This document shows positions 12,001-18,000 of a stretch of 64,000 nt of DNA, in pieces (positions within the stretch are counted from its first letter, which is position 1; every line of letters starts with the position of its first letter). The DNA is taken from the sequence record CP054387.1. One strand, given 5' to 3'. The position numbers were made by a program. Origin of the DNA: Escherichia phage CMS-2020a.

Positions 12001-15000
12001 CCATTTGTTTCTGCGGTAAGTTCATCAAGAACGGGGTGTAATGATTCCGGCGTCATAAAGCCTTTGGCTACAGAAACATAGTCATCCAACATGCCTGACT
12101 GAATTGGCCCCGGCCGGAAGAGCGCAGTCGTAGCAACAACCGTTTTAAAGCTCATTGGCTCAATTCCACCACCTAAATCTTTAAGCAGCTTGCGCATTGG
12201 GCCTGATTCAAGCTGGAAAACACCTTGAGTGTACCCAGCAGCAAAACCATCCAGCACCTTGCGATCTTCAAGAGAAATGGCATCAAGATTGATATCTTCA
12301 CCTGTGTTCTCTTTTATGTAGCGTTTTGCACTATCGAGCAAATCGAGAGTTGCCAGACCAAGTACGTCCAGCTTAATTAGGCCCATAGCCTCGCAGTAAC
12401 GCTTGTCAAATGCGATACAACGCGCGTCACCACGGCGTTCAACCGGTGTACGTTCTGTCAGAGGAACACCTGCTACGATCATCCCTGCCGCATGTCTACC
12501 AAAGCCACGCATAAGACTTTGTAACTTGCAGGCAGCATTGAATGCATCAGGGTATTTTGTCGCGTATTTGTCGAGACTTGCCAGTTGTTCGCGCAGCTCC
12601 TCCAATGGAAGGCTATCATCCTCGACGTTCTTCAGCTCTTTTGATACCGCCATATCTGCGGACTCCACACCATAAATACGAGCGGTATCACGTAGTGCTG
12701 AGGCTGCGCCCAGGTAGGTGAAGTTCGGAATGCCTGCAACGTAATCTTCGCCGTAGCGTTCATTCAGATACTCGATCACCTCATGGCGACGTGCCTGGCT
12801 GAAGTCCAAGTCCGCATCCGGCAAGTCGAGACGCTCAGGGTTGATGAAACGCTCAAACAGAAGACCGTGACGGATTGGGTCGACGTTGGTTATGCCTATG
12901 CACCACGCCACCAGAGAACCGGCAGAGGAACCACGACCAGGCCCGACAGGAATGCCAGTTTCACGGCTGTGATTCATCAGATCGCGTACCATCAGGAAGT
13001 AACCACAAAATCCCAGGCGAGTCAGCGTGTCCATTTCGTACTTTAGCCGCTCAACATAAACCCTGTTCTCAGAAGCAGGTGGTGTGTAGCCAAACTCTTT
13101 TGTGGTAAGACGTTTACGCAGCCCTGCAACAGCCAGTTTCATAAGCGTTGCAGGCTCGTCGTCTGCCATCTTTGGCAGTGCTGGTGGCAATTCATGCCAG
13201 CGCCATGTGCAGGCATCGATAATGGTATCCTGCGTTGTTGAGGCCATTGCAGCTGTTACCGGCACATCCATGCGAACGGAGAAGGTTTTCAGCGCCTCAA
13301 GGAGATGGCGGCGACCATTGACGGCGTTATCTCGCTGGTGGGGGATACGCAGACGATGCGGCTGGTCGATTTTGATGTTGTTCGTAACCATGTGCGCAAT
13401 GTCTTTAATGTCTGCATCGTCGATCGATTCGTAATAAGCGGGATAGAACGCCACTGGCTCTATTTTCAATGCGCTGGCGACTTTCATCGCCCGGACGTTA
13501 ATCTGGTCGTAGAATGGGGTAGGGTGCGGATAAACCACACTATAGAAGTTGTCTTTTCCACCCGCTGTAATCAGTGTGCTTATGATTTTTGCAAAATCGT
13601 TGCGTTGGAACACGCTACCGATGTCGGAAGTGAGCAGGATGATGTTGCCTTTGGCATATGTAGAAACCAACTGTTCGAGCGAGAGACGCGGTACAAAGTA
13701 GAACTGTTCTCGTGTGTTGGCCACCGTCATTAGTTCGCAGATGTCGCGATATCCTTGCTCATTTTTAATTAGAGCGGTAAACGAGTAGTTACGTCCTCGC
13801 TCTAATGATTCCATACATCCCTTAGACTCTTTAGCAATTTTAGCCCGGTACTCGTATGTGGGATCATCAACAATGTTTAGTTTCACACCACAAATAACCG
13901 CCATGTCGTCACCAGCGGCACGTTGTAGTGGAATAACACTCGCAATATTCATGCTATCTGCCGAAATTACAGCGGTGTAGCCAGCTTCTCTGGCAATCTT
14001 CACCGCGTTTTCTGCTTTTAGAGCCGACTCCCCAAGAGAGAAGTCAGTTCGAACCATCAGAGCCTTCATGTGTTTTTACCTTTCTGGTTTTTTTGATTTT
14101 GTCATTGGGGAAGCCTACGAACTTCCCATACATCGAAATCGCAACTTCTTTTGCTGATTGGTGACAATCGGGCTTGTCTGGACACACCAGGCAAGCCTTG
14201 CCAGTTTCAGAAGCAGCGATAAGAGAGCCGAAACATCCTTTACGCACGATTAACCAAATATTTTTTGAACAACTTCACGTGCCGCTTGCGCAGAAGCTGA
14301 AGGGAGTTTGTTAATGAAAGAACGCTCAATACCTGTCACAAAGTCGCCTCGCATCATTCCAATCTTGGCCGACAACAAAAGTTCACGAGGGCCAATCGGC
14401 TGACTGATCAGGTGTTCTTCGTATCCATCGCGAACGATACCGGCAAACTTAACCATCTTTTCAGCGTATTCATCCACGATGCCAGCATTTATCAACATGC
14501 TGATCTCTGCCTCTTTGCTCATGTATTTCACATTCGAAACGATGCCAAAACGCGAAAAGTTAGCGGCGTTCTGGATGTTTGTACCCTGGTACAAGCCGGT
14601 TTCATCACCAGATCCGTTCGTGTTGCCAGTGCCAATGAAAGCAAACCGTTCATGCGGAGTAATGCGACGCCATTCTGGAGTCGCCTCTTTGATGACCAAC
14701 GCTTCACCTTCCAGCACTGGCTGATACACGCCAAGAATCTGTGGAAACGCAAAGTCGTATTCATCCGCGAGGTAAACCCAGCCATGCTTCATTGCGAGCG
14801 CAAGCAAGCCAGGCTCGAAATACGTAGAGCCATCACGCGCCAGAATTTGTCCCGTAACATGAGCCTCTTCCATTGATGCTGTATGTTGGGCACGGATTAA
14901 CGGACGATTGAGCAAAGCACATAGTTGTGTAGGCAATGAAGATTTGCCTGTTCCTGCATGACCCCACAAATAGCCTGGTATGCCAAGTTCAAGCATCATG

Positions 15001-18000
15001 AAAATGTCTTTGATCAGTTCGAAGTCGCCATATACGTATCCCTTCTTCACTTCTGGAACGAACTCTGGAAACGGCGTATTGACGTTGACGCTAACCATGA
15101 GCGGCGTCCCACGTTTTGTTCCGAGTTCTTCCACCGTTACGTTTAGCAGTTCGTGAGCTGCGACCAGATCTGTCTTGTACTCAACTGTGCCTGTGTAGCC
15201 AGGGCTACTGGTCAAGCCAGAAGATTTGGCCATTTCGCTTTTTTGCTCGGCACGTTTAGCTTGAATTGCATCAAGTGCCTTTTTCGATAGCGTTGGTTCA
15301 TCTGGAAACTGCGTTGTGTACATTTTCAGTACGGTGTCAGGATCGGCATCTTTTACTGACTCAGGAATGCCCTCGCAATTACCATTGGCTACATGGGACT
15401 TAAAATAGTGAAATGATTTGCCGCACCACTTGCAAACAAGGTAATCAGAAGGATTTTTTTCATTTTGCAGTGCAGTAGTCGTCATGCGTTTTTCCTTTGT
15501 TCTCTAATGAGCGTTCAACTTCTTATATAAATATACCATTAACTATCGTAAGTGGTTACTTATCATTAAGGCTGTTTTATTCACTTCAAAATGATACGAG
15601 ATAGTTCAGTAACTACAGATGAACCAAGACTATCAACGCTCGTTACCAGGGCATGATTTGAGTAAAATCTCTCCGGTGCGTCAGTCATGATGCCAATTGC
15701 CATCAAATCAATGTCAGTCTGCGTTTCAATTTGCTTCGCAACCGAACGCAAATGAGCGTCAAAATCTCTCCCAACAGCCCACGGCGCGCCATCGCTCAGA
15801 ACAAGCATGATCTTCCTGTCCTCCAAGCGACCGGAAAATAACGATGCAAGGCTGGCTATGCTTTCACCATCCACGTTATTAAGAAGTGGGAATGTGTAGC
15901 CTACGCACCCCATACGTGAGCGAACTTCGCGAGAATTTACCTTTTCATTCCAATTTTTGATGATAGGTAGCATTAAAGATTCAAAGCGAGAGAACTCATA
16001 CTTGACAGCCTTAAGTTCTCCTGCCGCCATATGACTACCAAATGTAGTGAAGCCGGTGATAATGTTGGGAACATTTATTCGATCAAGAGCATCGGCGATG
16101 GTATATGCACTTGCAAGAGCCAATTGTATCGTTATACCACTCATTGAACCTGATAAATCAATAACTTGTTGAACACAGGCGTTAACGGCTTTAGATTCTT
16201 CTTTTTTACGAAACACGCGATCATCATTCATTGCTAATCTGTAGATACTAGAACCATGAATGCGCCCCCGACGCTGGCCCGGTATAAACTGAACTCTGTT
16301 TCTGCTTGCTATTGCTCGCTCCAGGTCTTTTGCCAGCGTCGACGAAACACCTGACGAAAGATGCTTTTCAATATATTTGTCGAAGAGCTGGTTGCCTTCA
16401 GGAACGATGCGATAGCGGCTGATTGGATATCCTCCTAAATCAATATCGGAGAATGTTTTAATAAGCCGTTTGATATGGGCTTCTGCCTGATCAATCGAGC
16501 CGATGAAGTCGTATGAACGATTGTATGGCCTGTATTCGCTTTTCGAGCTTTCTGTTAACTCGCTTTTAATCGTTTCGGATAGAGCATCTTCTGTCATGCC
16601 TCCGACTTCATCTTCTATGCTATCCAGCTCCTCTAAAGCCTCTTCCAGACTTATTTTTGACGGAGTTGGAATATCTGAAGAGCCGTCTTCTGTCGTTTTT
16701 CTTTTTTCGTGGTCAGCGGTTAATGATTCTGACGCCGCGTTATCAGAAGCATCAGAATCTGATACCTCTTTATCATTTTCTGTATCATCGAATATTGTTT
16801 CTGATGATTCAGAATTATCTGAATCATCACTGTCGTTAATATCATGTTTGTGCTTACTGTGTGATTCAGATTTGATAGATTTGTGGCTATCTAACGCTTC
16901 GGGTGTCTCATGATCTCCGTTGTCTTCATTGTTTTCTCCAGAGGCATCCGTCTGGTCAGCGTCTGAAGGATCGGGTGTTTTTCCCGGAGCTGACTCCTTA
17001 CCTTTGCTTTCACTTTCAGTGTCTTTGAGGATCTTAGCTATGGTCGCAGCCACCTTTACACAATCCTCGGTGCAGGACATGTTACGCACGGCCACATCGA
17101 TACCATGTTCTTTTAATAATGAAATTGGTTTCTCAATGACAGGCCAGTATTCATCCATGAAATCTACGAACGGTGCTTGGCCATCCCAGGCTCTTACAAC
17201 CGGACAGAGAAAGAAGTTTAGAAAAAGCGCGCGCTGATCTTTGCCACAATAAGCAATAGCCTCTGAAGCCTTTGGTTTAAAGACTTTTTCGATTATAAGG
17301 CGCTGAGTTGCCATCAGATTACGTCTCGTTCCGTTAAAGACCTGCCCCATTTTTCGCTCGATGAACACGTCTTCTAATGCATTCCATAGTGACCGGGAAG
17401 GAACGCGTCCTTTTTCTCTCATTTTGTTGGACACACGAATATCGGTAAACAAAATGTGAGCAACCTCATGATCGAGAAATCCGCGCACAGCATTCATCAA
17501 TGCCGGTGTTGCGTTATCCGGAATTGATGGGATGTTTACGAGAATTGGCTCTCCATCATCGTTATAGCGTACATAAGCGTCGTCTCCTCGTTCTGCAACA
17601 GGGATGTTTTTACCTGAAAGGAGAGCGACTACTCGTTTTACACTGTCACGGAAGTCCTGAACCTCTTTGATGGAACGTTTTTTAGACATGGCTAATCCTT
17701 TGTTATGAAAACAAATTATTTACTAGTGTGTTTAATGTAGCACTGCGCGAACAGGGAACTAAGCCATTCGCGCAGGTAGCAGAGAGGGGTTAACAGGTTC
17801 TGACGGCTAAAGAGCCAGAGCCGGTATTGATAAGCGTGAAGCGTTTGTTATTAAGTAGGAATATAAAGGCTGTTGCGTCATGCATACCAACCTGAATCTG
17901 CTCATTTGGTAATTCGGTGAGAATGTCAGCTACACATTCATCAGCTAATTTTTCAACGTGTCCGATCTCAAGAGTGATTAGGCTGGAAATAGTTGTTTTC

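What the first reader, a model, noticed from the sequence alone, without database searches (positions are those of the whole stretch)
14250..17689. CobS/CobT-like AAA+ ATPase and vWA pair with a ~150-residue acidic low-complexity insert
The pair sits directly upstream of the polymerase with no other cobalamin genes, so cobalt chelation is unlikely. MoxR-type AAA+ with vWA partners act as chaperone-like remodelling machines. The vWA protein carries a long Asp/Glu/Ser-rich stretch (about 16550-17020) that could mimic nucleic acid or bind histone-like proteins.
Basis: partly seen in the sequence, partly recalled or inferred. Interest (0 to 1): 0.5.

Follow-up and report, generated by a model that had tools for sequence, protein, structure and literature searches.

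The report
Phage CobS/CobT-like motor and adaptor pair
These two genes of an E. coli phage-plasmid are viral relatives of the cobalt-chelatase helper proteins CobS and CobT. They almost certainly do not make vitamin B12 and most likely form an ATP-driven protein-remodelling, possibly protein-cutting, machine; the long acidic stretch is the family's normal flexible linker.

Summary
On the minus strand, 15581-17689 encodes a 702-aa CobT-like vWA protein and 14250-15485 a 411-aa CobS-like AAA+ ATPase. A 67-aa ORF and DnaE follow. The window is an SSU5-type phage-plasmid, 99.9% identical to an E. coli O104:H4 plasmid.

Chelation is very unlikely. Both proteins score far below NCBI's CobS/CobT equivalog cut-offs. 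No CobN-like ORF is in the window, and E. coli lacks the pathway.

The acidic stretch (aa 223-382, net charge -37) is not an insert. Viral-type relatives have a median inter-domain spacer of 157 aa, and all 76 genuine CobT proteins have an acid-rich run. In the solved Brucella CobST structure this linker is disordered.

- The CobT-like N-domain keeps an HExxH...E metallopeptidase signature in 143 of 146 diverse relatives; genuine CobT has lost it in 76 of 76.
- This CobS subfamily carries an N-terminal Ros/MucR-like zinc finger.

The pair sits among replication and recombination genes in phages with three replisome types.

Best reading: a CobST-like motor-adaptor that remodels, and perhaps cleaves, an unknown protein client during replication. 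The gene pair is already described in phages; its function is still open. Interest is moderate.

The parts
15581..17689 (-). CobT-like adaptor gene (702 aa + stop): zincin-like N-domain, acidic linker, shaft segment, vWA/MIDAS domain
   Evidence: ORF. Pfam CobT + CobT_C. phrog_1576. PDB Brucella CobT 9uka_G, E 1.9e-16 alone and 1.2e-63 with a profile.
17024..17689 (-). N-terminal domain (aa 1-222), CobT_N-type zincin fold
17456..17470 (-). HEVAH (H74-E75-x-x-H78), zinc-metallopeptidase signature
   Evidence: Invariant in 82 diverse relatives. Present in 143 of 146 full-length representatives and in six of seven phage lineages checked. Replaced by S-M-A-L-R in 76 of 76 genuine CobT.
17357..17374 (-). 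E106-D107...E111 on the next helix, candidate third metal ligand
   Evidence: E106, D107 and E111 are invariant. They lie on helix 98-117 of the model. Genuine CobT has E-Q...E here.
16544..17023 (-). Acidic Asp/Glu/Ser-rich inter-domain linker (aa 223-382): hypervariable part 223-340 plus semi-conserved acidic segment 341-382
   Evidence: Composition. Variability among close relatives. Present family-wide and in genuine CobT. Disordered in the Brucella structures.
16184..16303 (-). Segment equivalent to the Brucella CobT 'shaft' (aa 463-502), which enters the CobS ring pore
   Evidence: Aligns with Brucella Q373-R413. G475 is invariant and G471, L482 and F493 nearly invariant. The shaft's role is described.
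15584..16180 (-). vWA domain with a complete MIDAS site (D511, S513, S515, N605, D633)
   Evidence: Pfam CobT_C. All five positions are invariant and align with Brucella D422/S424/S426/N518/D546.
14250..15485 (-). CobS-like AAA+ ATPase gene (411 aa + stop)
   Evidence: ORF. AAA_5. phrog_249. PDB Brucella CobS E 8e-25, then midasin 7.8e-12.
15276..15443 (-). N-terminal Ros/MucR-like zinc-finger module of the ATPase (aa 15-70; C18, C21, H26, H31, possibly C37)
   Evidence: C18, C21, H26 and H31 are invariant in 77 relatives. Pfam ROS_MUCR matches 42 of 77 members, best E 1.3e-6, but not the window protein itself. The best PDB hit of the module profile is Ros 2jsp, E 0.001. The model shows a beta-hairpin then a helix, pLDDT 74-86. 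The module is absent from cyanophage, ICP2-type and genuine CobS.
14253..15062 (-). AAA+ module (aa 142-411): Walker A G175-S182 (14940-14963), Walker B D241-E242 (14760-14765), sensor-1 N288, Arg finger R312, sensor-2 R367
   Evidence: Residue-by-residue alignment to Brucella CobS, whose motifs are defined. All are invariant.
14044..14247 (-). 67-aa Cys-rich ORF between cobS and dnaE; its spacing suggests translational coupling
   Evidence: ORF and overlaps. phrog_6337, function unknown. Also present in SSU5.
10551..14069 (-). DnaE-type DNA polymerase III alpha, downstream gene of the same transcription direction
   Evidence: Pfam PHP, DNA_pol3_alpha, finger and HHH_6. The CobT-CobS...DnaE order recurs.

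Best explanation
The two genes encode a viral-type CobS/CobT machine. A hexameric MoxR/CobS-class AAA+ motor is coupled to an adaptor. By homology with the solved Brucella CobST complex, the adaptor docks its N-domain on the ATPase lid and threads a conserved 'shaft' into the ring pore. It presents a MIDAS-bearing vWA domain to a client. The ~160-residue acidic stretch is the flexible tether between the adaptor's two domains and is inherited from the common ancestor with genuine CobT.

In this E. coli phage-plasmid the machine does not insert cobalt. It most likely uses ATP to remodel, and probably to cleave, an unknown protein client during the replication phase. Two features point that way. 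Unlike genuine CobT, the N-domain keeps a zinc-peptidase HExxH...E site. In this DnaE-linked subfamily the motor also carries a Ros/MucR-type zinc finger that could tether it to DNA.

Shown here: homology, intact catalytic, MIDAS and shaft motifs, family-wide linker, genomic context, absence of a chelatase partner. Inferred: complex formation, proteolysis, DNA tethering, timing, and the existence of a protein client.
For: Homology to CobS/CobT with all functional motifs intact:
- Walker A and B, sensor 1, Arg finger and sensor 2.
- The five MIDAS residues and the shaft segment.

Not orthologues of the chelatase subunits: 83.5 bits against a cut-off of 558.55, and 70.4 against 759.05.

No chelatase partner:
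- None of the eight window ORFs of 450 aa or more, the size range of CobN (137 kDa), matches a CobN-type family.
- B12 synthesis in E. coli required imported cobN/S/T and the corrin pathway.
- The same pair occurs in Vibrio cholerae phage ICP2.

The linker is ancestral and only compositionally constrained and is disordered in the solved complex.

Peptidase site:
- HExxH plus E106/D107/E111 are invariant across 82 relatives of 28-60% identity.
- The motif is present in 143 of 146 cluster representatives.
- It is lost in 76 of 76 genuine CobT.

Zinc finger on the motor. Its Cys-to-Asp variation at the second ligand mirrors the variation known in Ros/MucR proteins.

Context:
- The pair lies in the replication/recombination module in SSU5-type, Nickievirus, Rhizobium, Xanthomonas, ICP2-type and T4-like cyanophages.
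- Of 60 IMG/VR loci, 41 have replication or recombination genes in the flank and none has a gene matching the three SSU5-type tail proteins used as a contrast panel.
- Iyer et al. 2021 independently described a phage MoxR-vWA pair with an N-terminal metallopeptidase.
Against: - No experiment exists on any viral CobS/CobT, and the client is unknown.
- Model coordinates could not be inspected, so the geometry of the metal site is unverified.
- One phage lineage with the same CobT-CobS-DnaE arrangement (Nickievirus phiK7B1) has SEISK instead of HExxH, and 3 of 146 representatives lack the motif. Proteolysis therefore cannot be essential to every member.
- The zinc finger is confined to the DnaE-linked subfamily. 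The window protein itself does not reach Pfam ROS_MUCR at E 0.1, and the profile match to Ros is borderline at E 0.001.
- Position in a replication module is also where phages keep nucleotide-metabolism and host-takeover genes, so context does not prove a replication role.
- The structural-gene contrast panel held only three SSU5-type tail proteins.
Confidence: 0.55

Rival explanations
1. Auxiliary metabolic genes: viral CobS/CobT replace or boost the host's chelatase motor, hijack host CobN and raise cobalamin supply for the infected cell.
For: This is the standard annotation ('porphyrin/cobalamin biosynthesis'). Liu et al. 2021 proposed it explicitly. The homology to CobS/CobT is real, including the shaft and MIDAS. 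Some hosts of related phages (rhizobia, pseudomonads, cyanobacteria) do have CobN, on established knowledge.
Against: Scores are far below the equivalog cut-offs. No CobN-like ORF is in the window. E. coli has neither the corrin substrate pathway nor cobN. Vibrio cholerae phages carry the pair too. Genuine CobT has lost the HExxH site that the viral type keeps under strong conservation. No cobalamin genes or B12-dependent enzymes appear among the neighbours annotated in Cyrano or SSU5.
Confidence: 0.05
2. Virion-assembly chaperone with a processing protease: the MoxR-vWA pair folds or assembles structural proteins and the peptidase domain trims them. This was proposed for jumbo phages, by analogy with ATV p618/p892.
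For: Iyer et al. 2021 made this proposal for the same architecture, a MoxR ATPase with a vWA protein fused to an N-terminal metallopeptidase. A MoxR-vWA pair is needed for tail development in Acidianus two-tailed virus.
Against: In every lineage examined the genes lie with replication and recombination genes, not in the structural module. Here they are co-directional with dnaE and closely spaced, and no convincing terminator lies between them. In haloviruses they are also placed in the replication/accessory module.
Confidence: 0.15
3. Host-takeover or counter-defence protease unrelated to the replisome: the machine captures a host protein through the MIDAS site, unfolds it and cleaves it early in infection.
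For: The conserved peptidase signature and intact motor. The early-region location next to a repressor-like HTH gene. Weak structural resemblance of the N-domain to the metalloprotease domain of the plasmid anti-restriction protein ArdC. The pair is widespread as a core gene of very different phages.
Against: No match to known defence or counter-defence families was found, although PADLOC holds defence systems only. A single conserved host target across E. coli, Vibrio, cyanobacteria, rhizobia and Gordonia would be required. The HExxH loss in Nickievirus also argues against this.
Confidence: 0.15
4. One reading: the acidic stretch is itself the functional element, a nucleic-acid mimic or a bait for histone-like DNA-binding proteins.
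For: Extreme negative charge (net -37 in 160 aa). If the zinc finger on the partner ATPase binds DNA, as Ros/MucR domains do, the machine would work near DNA, where basic nucleoid proteins are.
Against: Genuine metabolic CobT has an equally acidic linker, and its client CobN is not a DNA-binding protein. The sequence is unconstrained apart from composition and length varies from 22 to 305 aa. There is no repeat or ordered structure of the kind seen in known DNA mimics.
Confidence: 0.07

Closest known systems
Aerobic cobaltochelatase motor CobS-CobT of CobNST (Brucella melitensis cryo-EM/crystal structures 9uka etc.; bioRxiv 10.64898/2026.07.21.739949)
   Same: Same two-protein architecture. 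A CobS-class AAA+ with all ATPase motifs. An adaptor made of an M48C-like N-domain, a disordered acidic linker, a shaft segment and a vWA domain with MIDAS.
   Different: About 25% identity, far below the equivalog cut-offs. No CobN and no corrin pathway. The viral N-domain keeps HExxH where genuine CobT has SMALR. This ATPase has about 100 extra N-terminal residues with a zinc finger. The gene neighbours are replication genes.
Phage and archaeal-virus cobST / MoxR-vWA-metallopeptidase pairs (cyanophage cobS plus 'peptidase', Vibrio phage ICP2 ORF41/42, haloviruses, group 2.2 jumbo phages)
   Same: Same family. phrog_249 and phrog_1576. 493 phage records hold a CobS relative and 71 a CobT relative. 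HExxH, acidic run and MIDAS are present in six of seven lineages checked. Described in PMC3037004, PMC8651126 and PMC7824862.
   Different: The SSU5/Rhizobium/Nickievirus-type subfamily adds the Ros/MucR-like finger to the ATPase and is fixed next to DnaE. The cyanophage and ICP2-type ATPases lack that module. No member has a tested function.
Midasin/Rea1 and Mg-chelatase BchI/BchD (AAA+ ring, acidic linker, MIDAS domain)
   Same: Midasin is the next-best solved relative of the ATPase (E 7.8e-12). An acidic D/E-rich region preceding a MIDAS domain is a recurrent design of this AAA+ clade (established knowledge of midasin and BchD architecture).
   Different: In those proteins the modules are fused in one polypeptide or the adaptor carries its own AAA-like domain. 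The clients are pre-ribosomal factors or protoporphyrin chelatase H. There is no peptidase motif.
MoxR-vWA chaperone pairs NorQ/NorD, CbbQ/CbbO, RavA/ViaA; ATV p618/p892
   Same: Motor-adaptor-client logic with a MIDAS-mediated grip. CbbQ and NorQ are weaker solved relatives of the ATPase and NorD of the vWA domain. CbbQ_C is detected in 76 of 77 relatives.
   Different: Those adaptors lack the zincin N-domain and their clients are known metabolic enzymes or a virion tail.
Ros/MucR prokaryotic C2H2 zinc finger (Ros87, PDB 2jsp)
   Same: C-x2-C-x9-H-x4/5-H spacing, followed by a T-x-E/x-Y segment. The same Cys-to-Asp substitution at the second ligand occurs in some members.
   Different: Only the finger module is shared, not the oligomerisation domain. 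Here it is fused to an AAA+ ATPase. DNA binding is untested, and the window protein has a 4-residue insertion with Cys in place of the last His.
DNA-linked AAA+/zincin protease systems (SPRTN with p97; plasmid ArdC)
   Different: No sequence relationship was shown. This is a lead, not a classification.

Membership tests
Cobaltochelatase subunit CobS (TIGR01650 equivalog) | Score at or above the curated equivalog cut-off | tested here: not met
   83.5 bits against a cut-off of 558.55.
Cobaltochelatase subunit CobT (TIGR01651 equivalog) | Score at or above the curated equivalog cut-off | tested here: not met
   70.4 bits against a cut-off of 759.05.
CobNST cobaltochelatase system | A CobN large subunit and the corrin substrate available in the same cell | tested here: not met
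   None of the eight window ORFs of 450 aa or more matches a CobN-type family. None is annotated in Cyrano or SSU5. E. coli needed imported cobN/S/T and about 30 pathway genes. The host chromosome itself was not scanned here.
CobNST cobaltochelatase system | ATP-dependent cobalt insertion activity | not testable with these tools
   Needs an enzyme assay or complementation.
CobS/MoxR-class AAA+ ATPase (AAA_5; helix-2 insert clade) | Walker A, Walker B, sensor 1, Arg finger and sensor 2 intact | tested here: met
   G175-S182, D241-E242, N288, R312 and R367 align with Brucella G71-S78, D141-E142, N186, R210 and R271. They are invariant.
CobT-type adaptor (Pfam CobT + CobT_C) | N-domain, acidic disordered linker, shaft, vWA with a five-residue MIDAS | tested here: met
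   Pfam above the gathering scores. MIDAS D511/S513/S515/N605/D633 invariant. Shaft segment aligned. Linker composition.
Viral cobST / MoxR-vWA-metallopeptidase pair (phrog_249 + phrog_1576) | Adjacent AAA+ and vWA genes on a phage genome, with profile matches to the viral families | tested here: met
   E 9e-106 and 7e-298. Adjacency. 46 of 60 viral loci have CobS in the flank.
Zincin (gluzincin, M48-like) metallopeptidase | HExxH on a helix plus a downstream Glu ligand on the next helix, after a beta-sheet | tested here: met
   H74, E75, H78, E106 and E111 invariant. Secondary-structure order is strands, helix 62-81, helix 98-117.
Zincin (gluzincin, M48-like) metallopeptidase | Significant fold or profile match to a characterised peptidase family | tested here: inconclusive
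Zincin (gluzincin, M48-like) metallopeptidase | Zinc binding and peptide-bond hydrolysis | not testable with these tools
   Needs metal analysis and a protease assay.
Ros/MucR zinc finger (PF05443) | Profile match and a C-x2-C/D-x9-H-x4-H ligand pattern | tested here: inconclusive
   42 of 77 subfamily members match, best E 1.3e-6, but the window protein does not at E 0.1. The module profile hits Ros 2jsp at E 0.001. Ligands C18/C21/H31 are invariant. Foldseek was not significant.
Known anti-phage defence systems (PADLOC) | Match to a defence-system protein model | tested here: not met
   No hit for the ATPase. Only a 0.0018 DrmE match for the vWA protein.

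The most novel reading that the evidence does not exclude
The viral CobS/CobT pair is a DNA-tethered, ATP-driven metalloprotease. The Ros/MucR-type finger would place the AAA+ ring on AT-rich DNA. The MIDAS domain would grip a DNA-bound protein, such as a nucleoid-associated silencer or a replication roadblock. The motor would extract it and the HExxH domain would cut it, clearing the template for the phage or plasmid replisome. This would be a bacterial-virus analogue of SPRTN with p97. On this reading, genuine CobT would be a pseudo-peptidase derivative recruited for metal insertion.
Probability: 0.15. Interest if true: 0.8.

Novelty: already known. Interest (0 to 1): 0.4.

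Why it matters
CobS is a near-universal core gene of marine T4-like cyanophages (PMC9983427), and the cobST pair is spread over many phage and archaeal-virus families. It is routinely counted as a vitamin-B12 'auxiliary metabolic gene', yet its function has never been tested.

An E. coli phage-plasmid that carries the pair offers a clean system for that question. The host has no CobN and no corrin pathway, and the element is present in 219 of 5,426 complete E. coli genomes. The analysis also gives specific mutations to make: HExxH, Walker B, MIDAS, zinc finger and linker swaps.

If the peptidase site is active, virome studies that score these genes as cobalamin biosynthesis are mis-assigning them. 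Genuine CobT would then be an example of a pseudo-enzyme adaptor derived from a protease.

Tried and rejected
- phmmer of the N-domain alone against PDB gave only chance HLA-DR and superoxide dismutase matches. I obtained the Brucella N-domain sequence instead by querying with a CobT N-terminus recalled from memory and reading the printed target.
- The second large homologue search, with a Brucella C-terminal fragment, returned mostly truncated CobTs lacking the N-domain. I replaced them with 76 full ORFs from genome loci. All 76 are Hyphomicrobiales, so the 'lost in genuine CobT' statement rests on one order plus the Brucella structure.
- An apparent overlap of the vWA match with 'DNA polymerase III alpha' features in Xanthomonas phage JGB6 looked like a gene fusion. 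It is an artefact of shifted product names on a frameshift-ridden record; the true order is CobT, CobS, DnaE.
- Foldseek against PDB found nothing significant for either model.
I redid it with database homologues. The ATPase N-terminus model is only partly confident: mean pLDDT 64, with 71-86 over residues 11-80.
- The promoter and terminator scan gave no more sites than shuffled sequence, so operon structure rests on spacing only.
- PADLOC gave no defence assignment and TRF found no repeat in the linker DNA.
- I considered the CxxC motif of the ATPase as a ClpX-like C4 finger and rejected it in favour of the Ros/MucR pattern after the profile results.

Full report
**What is there**

On the minus strand, four ORFs follow one another:
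- 15581-17689 (702 aa)
- 14250-15485 (411 aa)
- 14044-14247 (67 aa)
- 10551-14069 (1172 aa, DnaE)

The gaps are 95 nt and 2 nt, followed by a 26-nt overlap. The 702-aa protein matches Pfam CobT (N-terminal part) and CobT_C (vWA). The 411-aa protein matches AAA_5. PHROGs places them in phrog_1576 and phrog_249.

The DNA is 97.5-98% identical to Escherichia phages PhiR41_1, Cyrano and CMS-2020a, and 75% identical to Salmonella phage SSU5 over part of its length. It occurs at 95% identity or more in 219 of 5,426 complete E. coli genomes. It is always on plasmids of about 107-120 kb, and the best match is NC_018651.1 at 99.9%. The window is therefore an SSU5-type phage-plasmid.

RefSeq names the proteins 'cobaltochelatase CobT-related protein' and 'AAA family ATPase'. 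The Cyrano record calls them cobalamin synthetase and dimethylbenzimidazole phosphoribosyltransferase. Those are the unrelated Salmonella enzymes that happen to share the names CobS and CobT.

**The acidic stretch**

Residues 223-382 (window 16544-17023) contain 50 Asp/Glu, 13 Lys/Arg, 42 Ser/Thr and only 18 hydrophobic residues. Net charge is -37 and pI is 4.05, between two domains of pI about 9. There is no tandem repeat in the DNA.

| Region | Identity among nine SSU5-type relatives | Length in relatives |
|---|---|---|
| N-domain (aa 1-222) | 79% | 222-225 aa |
| Variable linker (aa 223-340) | 26% | 104-207 aa |
| Acidic segment (aa 341-382) | 63% | 41-42 aa |
| C-terminal domain (aa 383-702) | 78% | 316-320 aa |

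A search of 1.84 billion cluster representatives found 5,036 related clusters. For 143 of the 146 full-length proteins among the best 150, the space between the N-domain and the vWA domain could be measured. It has a median of 157 aa (range 22-305) and a median Asp+Glu fraction of 0.39. The stretch here is therefore of median size for its family.

Genuine CobT has the same feature. All 76 full CobT ORFs taken from Hyphomicrobiales genomes have an acid-rich run (median 126 aa, Asp+Glu 0.35). [quoted passage not shown]

The stretch is thus the ancestral flexible tether of this adaptor family. It is not a phage-specific insert, and nothing in the data calls for a nucleic-acid-mimic role.

**Relation to the chelatase**

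The closest solved relatives are Brucella CobS (E 8e-25) and CobT (E 1.9e-16, or 1.2e-63 with a family profile). Midasin, CbbQ, NorQ and NorD follow.

Residue-by-residue mapping onto the Brucella proteins shows intact functional sites:
- Walker A G175-S182
- Walker B D241-E242
- Sensor 1 N288
- Arg finger R312
- Sensor 2 R367
- All five MIDAS residues: D511, S513, S515, N605, D633

All of these are invariant in diverse relatives. The segment equivalent to the CobT 'shaft', which enters the ATPase pore in the nucleotide-bound complex (aa 463-502), is among the best-conserved parts of the viral proteins. I therefore infer that the two proteins form the same kind of motor-adaptor complex.

Membership in the chelatase itself fails on four counts:
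- NCBIfam's equivalog models give 83.5 bits against a cut-off of 558.55, and 70.4 against 759.05.
- None of the window's ORFs of 450 aa or more is CobN-like.
- None is annotated in Cyrano or SSU5.
- E. coli produced B12 only after the whole pathway, including cobN, cobS and cobT, was imported (PMC6249242).

**A conserved peptidase signature**

The N-domain contains HEVAH (aa 74-78). In an alignment of 82 relatives sharing 28-60% identity with the query, the invariant N-domain columns include D73, H74, E75, H78, E106, D107 and E111. Of 146 full-length representatives, 143 have HExxH at this place.

The motif is also present in SSU5, Rhizobium, ICP2-type, T4-like cyanophage (syn9 gp150, annotated 'peptidase'), roseophage and Gordonia phage proteins.

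An AlphaFold2 model of aa 1-225 is confident (pLDDT 92.8). It shows a helix, three strands, then a helix carrying HExxH and a following helix carrying E106/D107/E111. This is the layout of a gluzincin, and it matches the Brucella CobT_N domain, whose authors describe it as resembling peptidase M48C.

Genuine CobT lacks the motif. None of the 76 has HExxH. A profile-profile alignment (probability 85%) puts D-S-M-A-L-R opposite D-H-E-V-A-H, and E-Q...E opposite E-D...E. The viral type thus keeps a metal/catalytic site that the metabolic adaptor has lost.

The existence of an N-terminal metallopeptidase domain on phage vWA partners of MoxR ATPases was already noted by Iyer et al. 2021. Liu et al. 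2021 remarked that cyanophage cobT is annotated as a peptidase.

One caution applies. Pseudomonas phage phiK7B1 (Nickievirus), with the same gene order, has SEISK instead. Proteolysis therefore cannot be indispensable in every lineage.

**A zinc finger on the ATPase**

Compared with Brucella CobS, the ATPase has about 100 extra N-terminal residues. In 22 relatives that lie next to DnaE on IMG/VR contigs, and in 76 further database homologues, this region carries a conserved motif. Its consensus reads K-I-x-C-x2-C-G-x4-H-x4-H-L-x4-H-P-E...Y...P-x-x-P-x-x-S. C18, C21, H26 and H31 are invariant.

Three lines of evidence link it to Ros/MucR:
- Pfam ROS_MUCR matches 42 of 77 members (best E 1.3e-6), though not the window protein itself.
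- A profile of the module finds the Ros zinc finger (2jsp) as its best PDB hit, at E 0.001. The two Cys, the His nine residues on, and the T-x-E-Y segment all align.
- Some members have Asp in place of the second Cys. This is the same substitution documented in Mesorhizobium Ros/MucR homologues (PMC9779718).

The model of this region shows a beta-hairpin followed by helices at pLDDT 71-86. The Foldseek list is full of C2H2 fingers but is not significant.

Cyanophage, ICP2-type and genuine CobS lack the module. I read this as a probable DNA-binding finger acquired by the DnaE-linked subfamily. The binding itself is inference.

**Context**

The pair is embedded in replication and recombination genes in several settings:
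- SSU5-type elements: ligase, primase, helicase, SSB, RecA-like, SbcCD.
- Nickievirus, Rhizobium phages and Xanthomonas phage JGB6. All three have CobT-CobS followed by DnaE.
- The ICP2-type podovirus JSF27, upstream of helicase and DNA polymerase I.
- T4-like cyanophage syn9, between gp46/47 and gp45/44.

Of 60 IMG/VR loci found with family motifs, 46 have CobS in the flank and 41 have replication or recombination genes from a small query panel. None matched the three SSU5-type tail proteins used as a contrast.

Here the operon starts beside a divergent HTH repressor-like gene and a tyrosine recombinase. No defence-system model matches.

This placement across three replisome types argues for action in the early or replicative phase rather than in virion assembly. 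It cannot separate a direct replication role from host takeover.

**Verdict**

The special role proposed for the acidic stretch is not.

The most likely mechanism is a CobST-like AAA+ motor and MIDAS adaptor joined by an acidic tether. It acts on a protein client during replication, probably with proteolysis, and in this subfamily possibly on DNA. The client and the activity remain unknown.

The gene pair and its family are already described and widely, though misleadingly, annotated. The contrast with the newly solved chelatase adaptor and the zinc finger are incremental additions that make an old open question testable in E. coli.

Noticed in passing
window 10554-11120 (minus strand; DnaE aa 984-1172): The DnaE polymerase has a C-terminal extension of about 190 aa beyond the HHH_6 domain. 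It shows weak similarity to family-4 uracil-DNA glycosylases: Pfam UDG E 7.7e-4, below the gathering score, and PDB UDGs at E 0.05-0.2.
   Followed up: partly
window 14044-14247 (minus strand): A 67-aa ORF with four Cys and a His (phrog_6337, function unknown). It starts 2 nt after the cobS stop and overlaps the dnaE start by 26 nt. SSU5 has it too.
   Followed up: partly
window 30775-32478 (minus strand): A 567-aa KAP-family P-loop NTPase that matches the PADLOC candidate defence family PDC-S49 (E 2.8e-22). It may be defence cargo of the phage-plasmid.
   Followed up: no
window 19942-21855 (minus strand): A 637-aa ORF with DUF1737, a sialate O-acetylesterase-like SASA domain and DUF6645, next to the tyrosine recombinase gene. 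Whether it is tail-associated or cargo was not examined.
   Followed up: no
window 18250-18636 (+) and 18631-19734 (-): A weak HTH (Cro/C1-like) repressor candidate lies divergent from the orf70-cobT-cobS-dnaE direction, and a phage-integrase-family recombinase overlaps its end. The operon may therefore be under lysogeny control.
   Followed up: partly
L001 (Escherichia phage Cyrano OV696614.1) 20251-23690: The record names the two genes 'cobalamin synthetase' and 'dimethylbenzimidazole phosphoribosyltransferase'. These are the unrelated Salmonella-nomenclature CobS and CobT enzymes, so the annotation is a name-collision error.
   Followed up: yes
L088 (Xanthomonas phage JGB6 OQ436456.1) 6181-13713: Genes are broken into many short CDS and the product names are displaced. 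The true CobT and CobS regions carry 'PHP domain' and 'DNA polymerase III alpha' labels, and the true DnaE carries recombinase, metallophosphoesterase and AAA ATPase labels.
   Followed up: yes
L003 (Pseudomonas phage phiK7B1) 4847-6931: The CobT-like protein of this Nickievirus has SEISK in place of HExxH and ES in place of ED. This is an independent loss of the peptidase signature within a phage that keeps the CobT-CobS-DnaE order.
   Followed up: partly
L004, L098-L100, L103, L106 (Rhizobium-type phage CobS N-termini): The second zinc ligand of the finger is Asp instead of Cys (C-x2-D) in several members. This parallels the Cys-Asp-His2 sites reported for Mesorhizobium Ros/MucR homologues.
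   Followed up: partly
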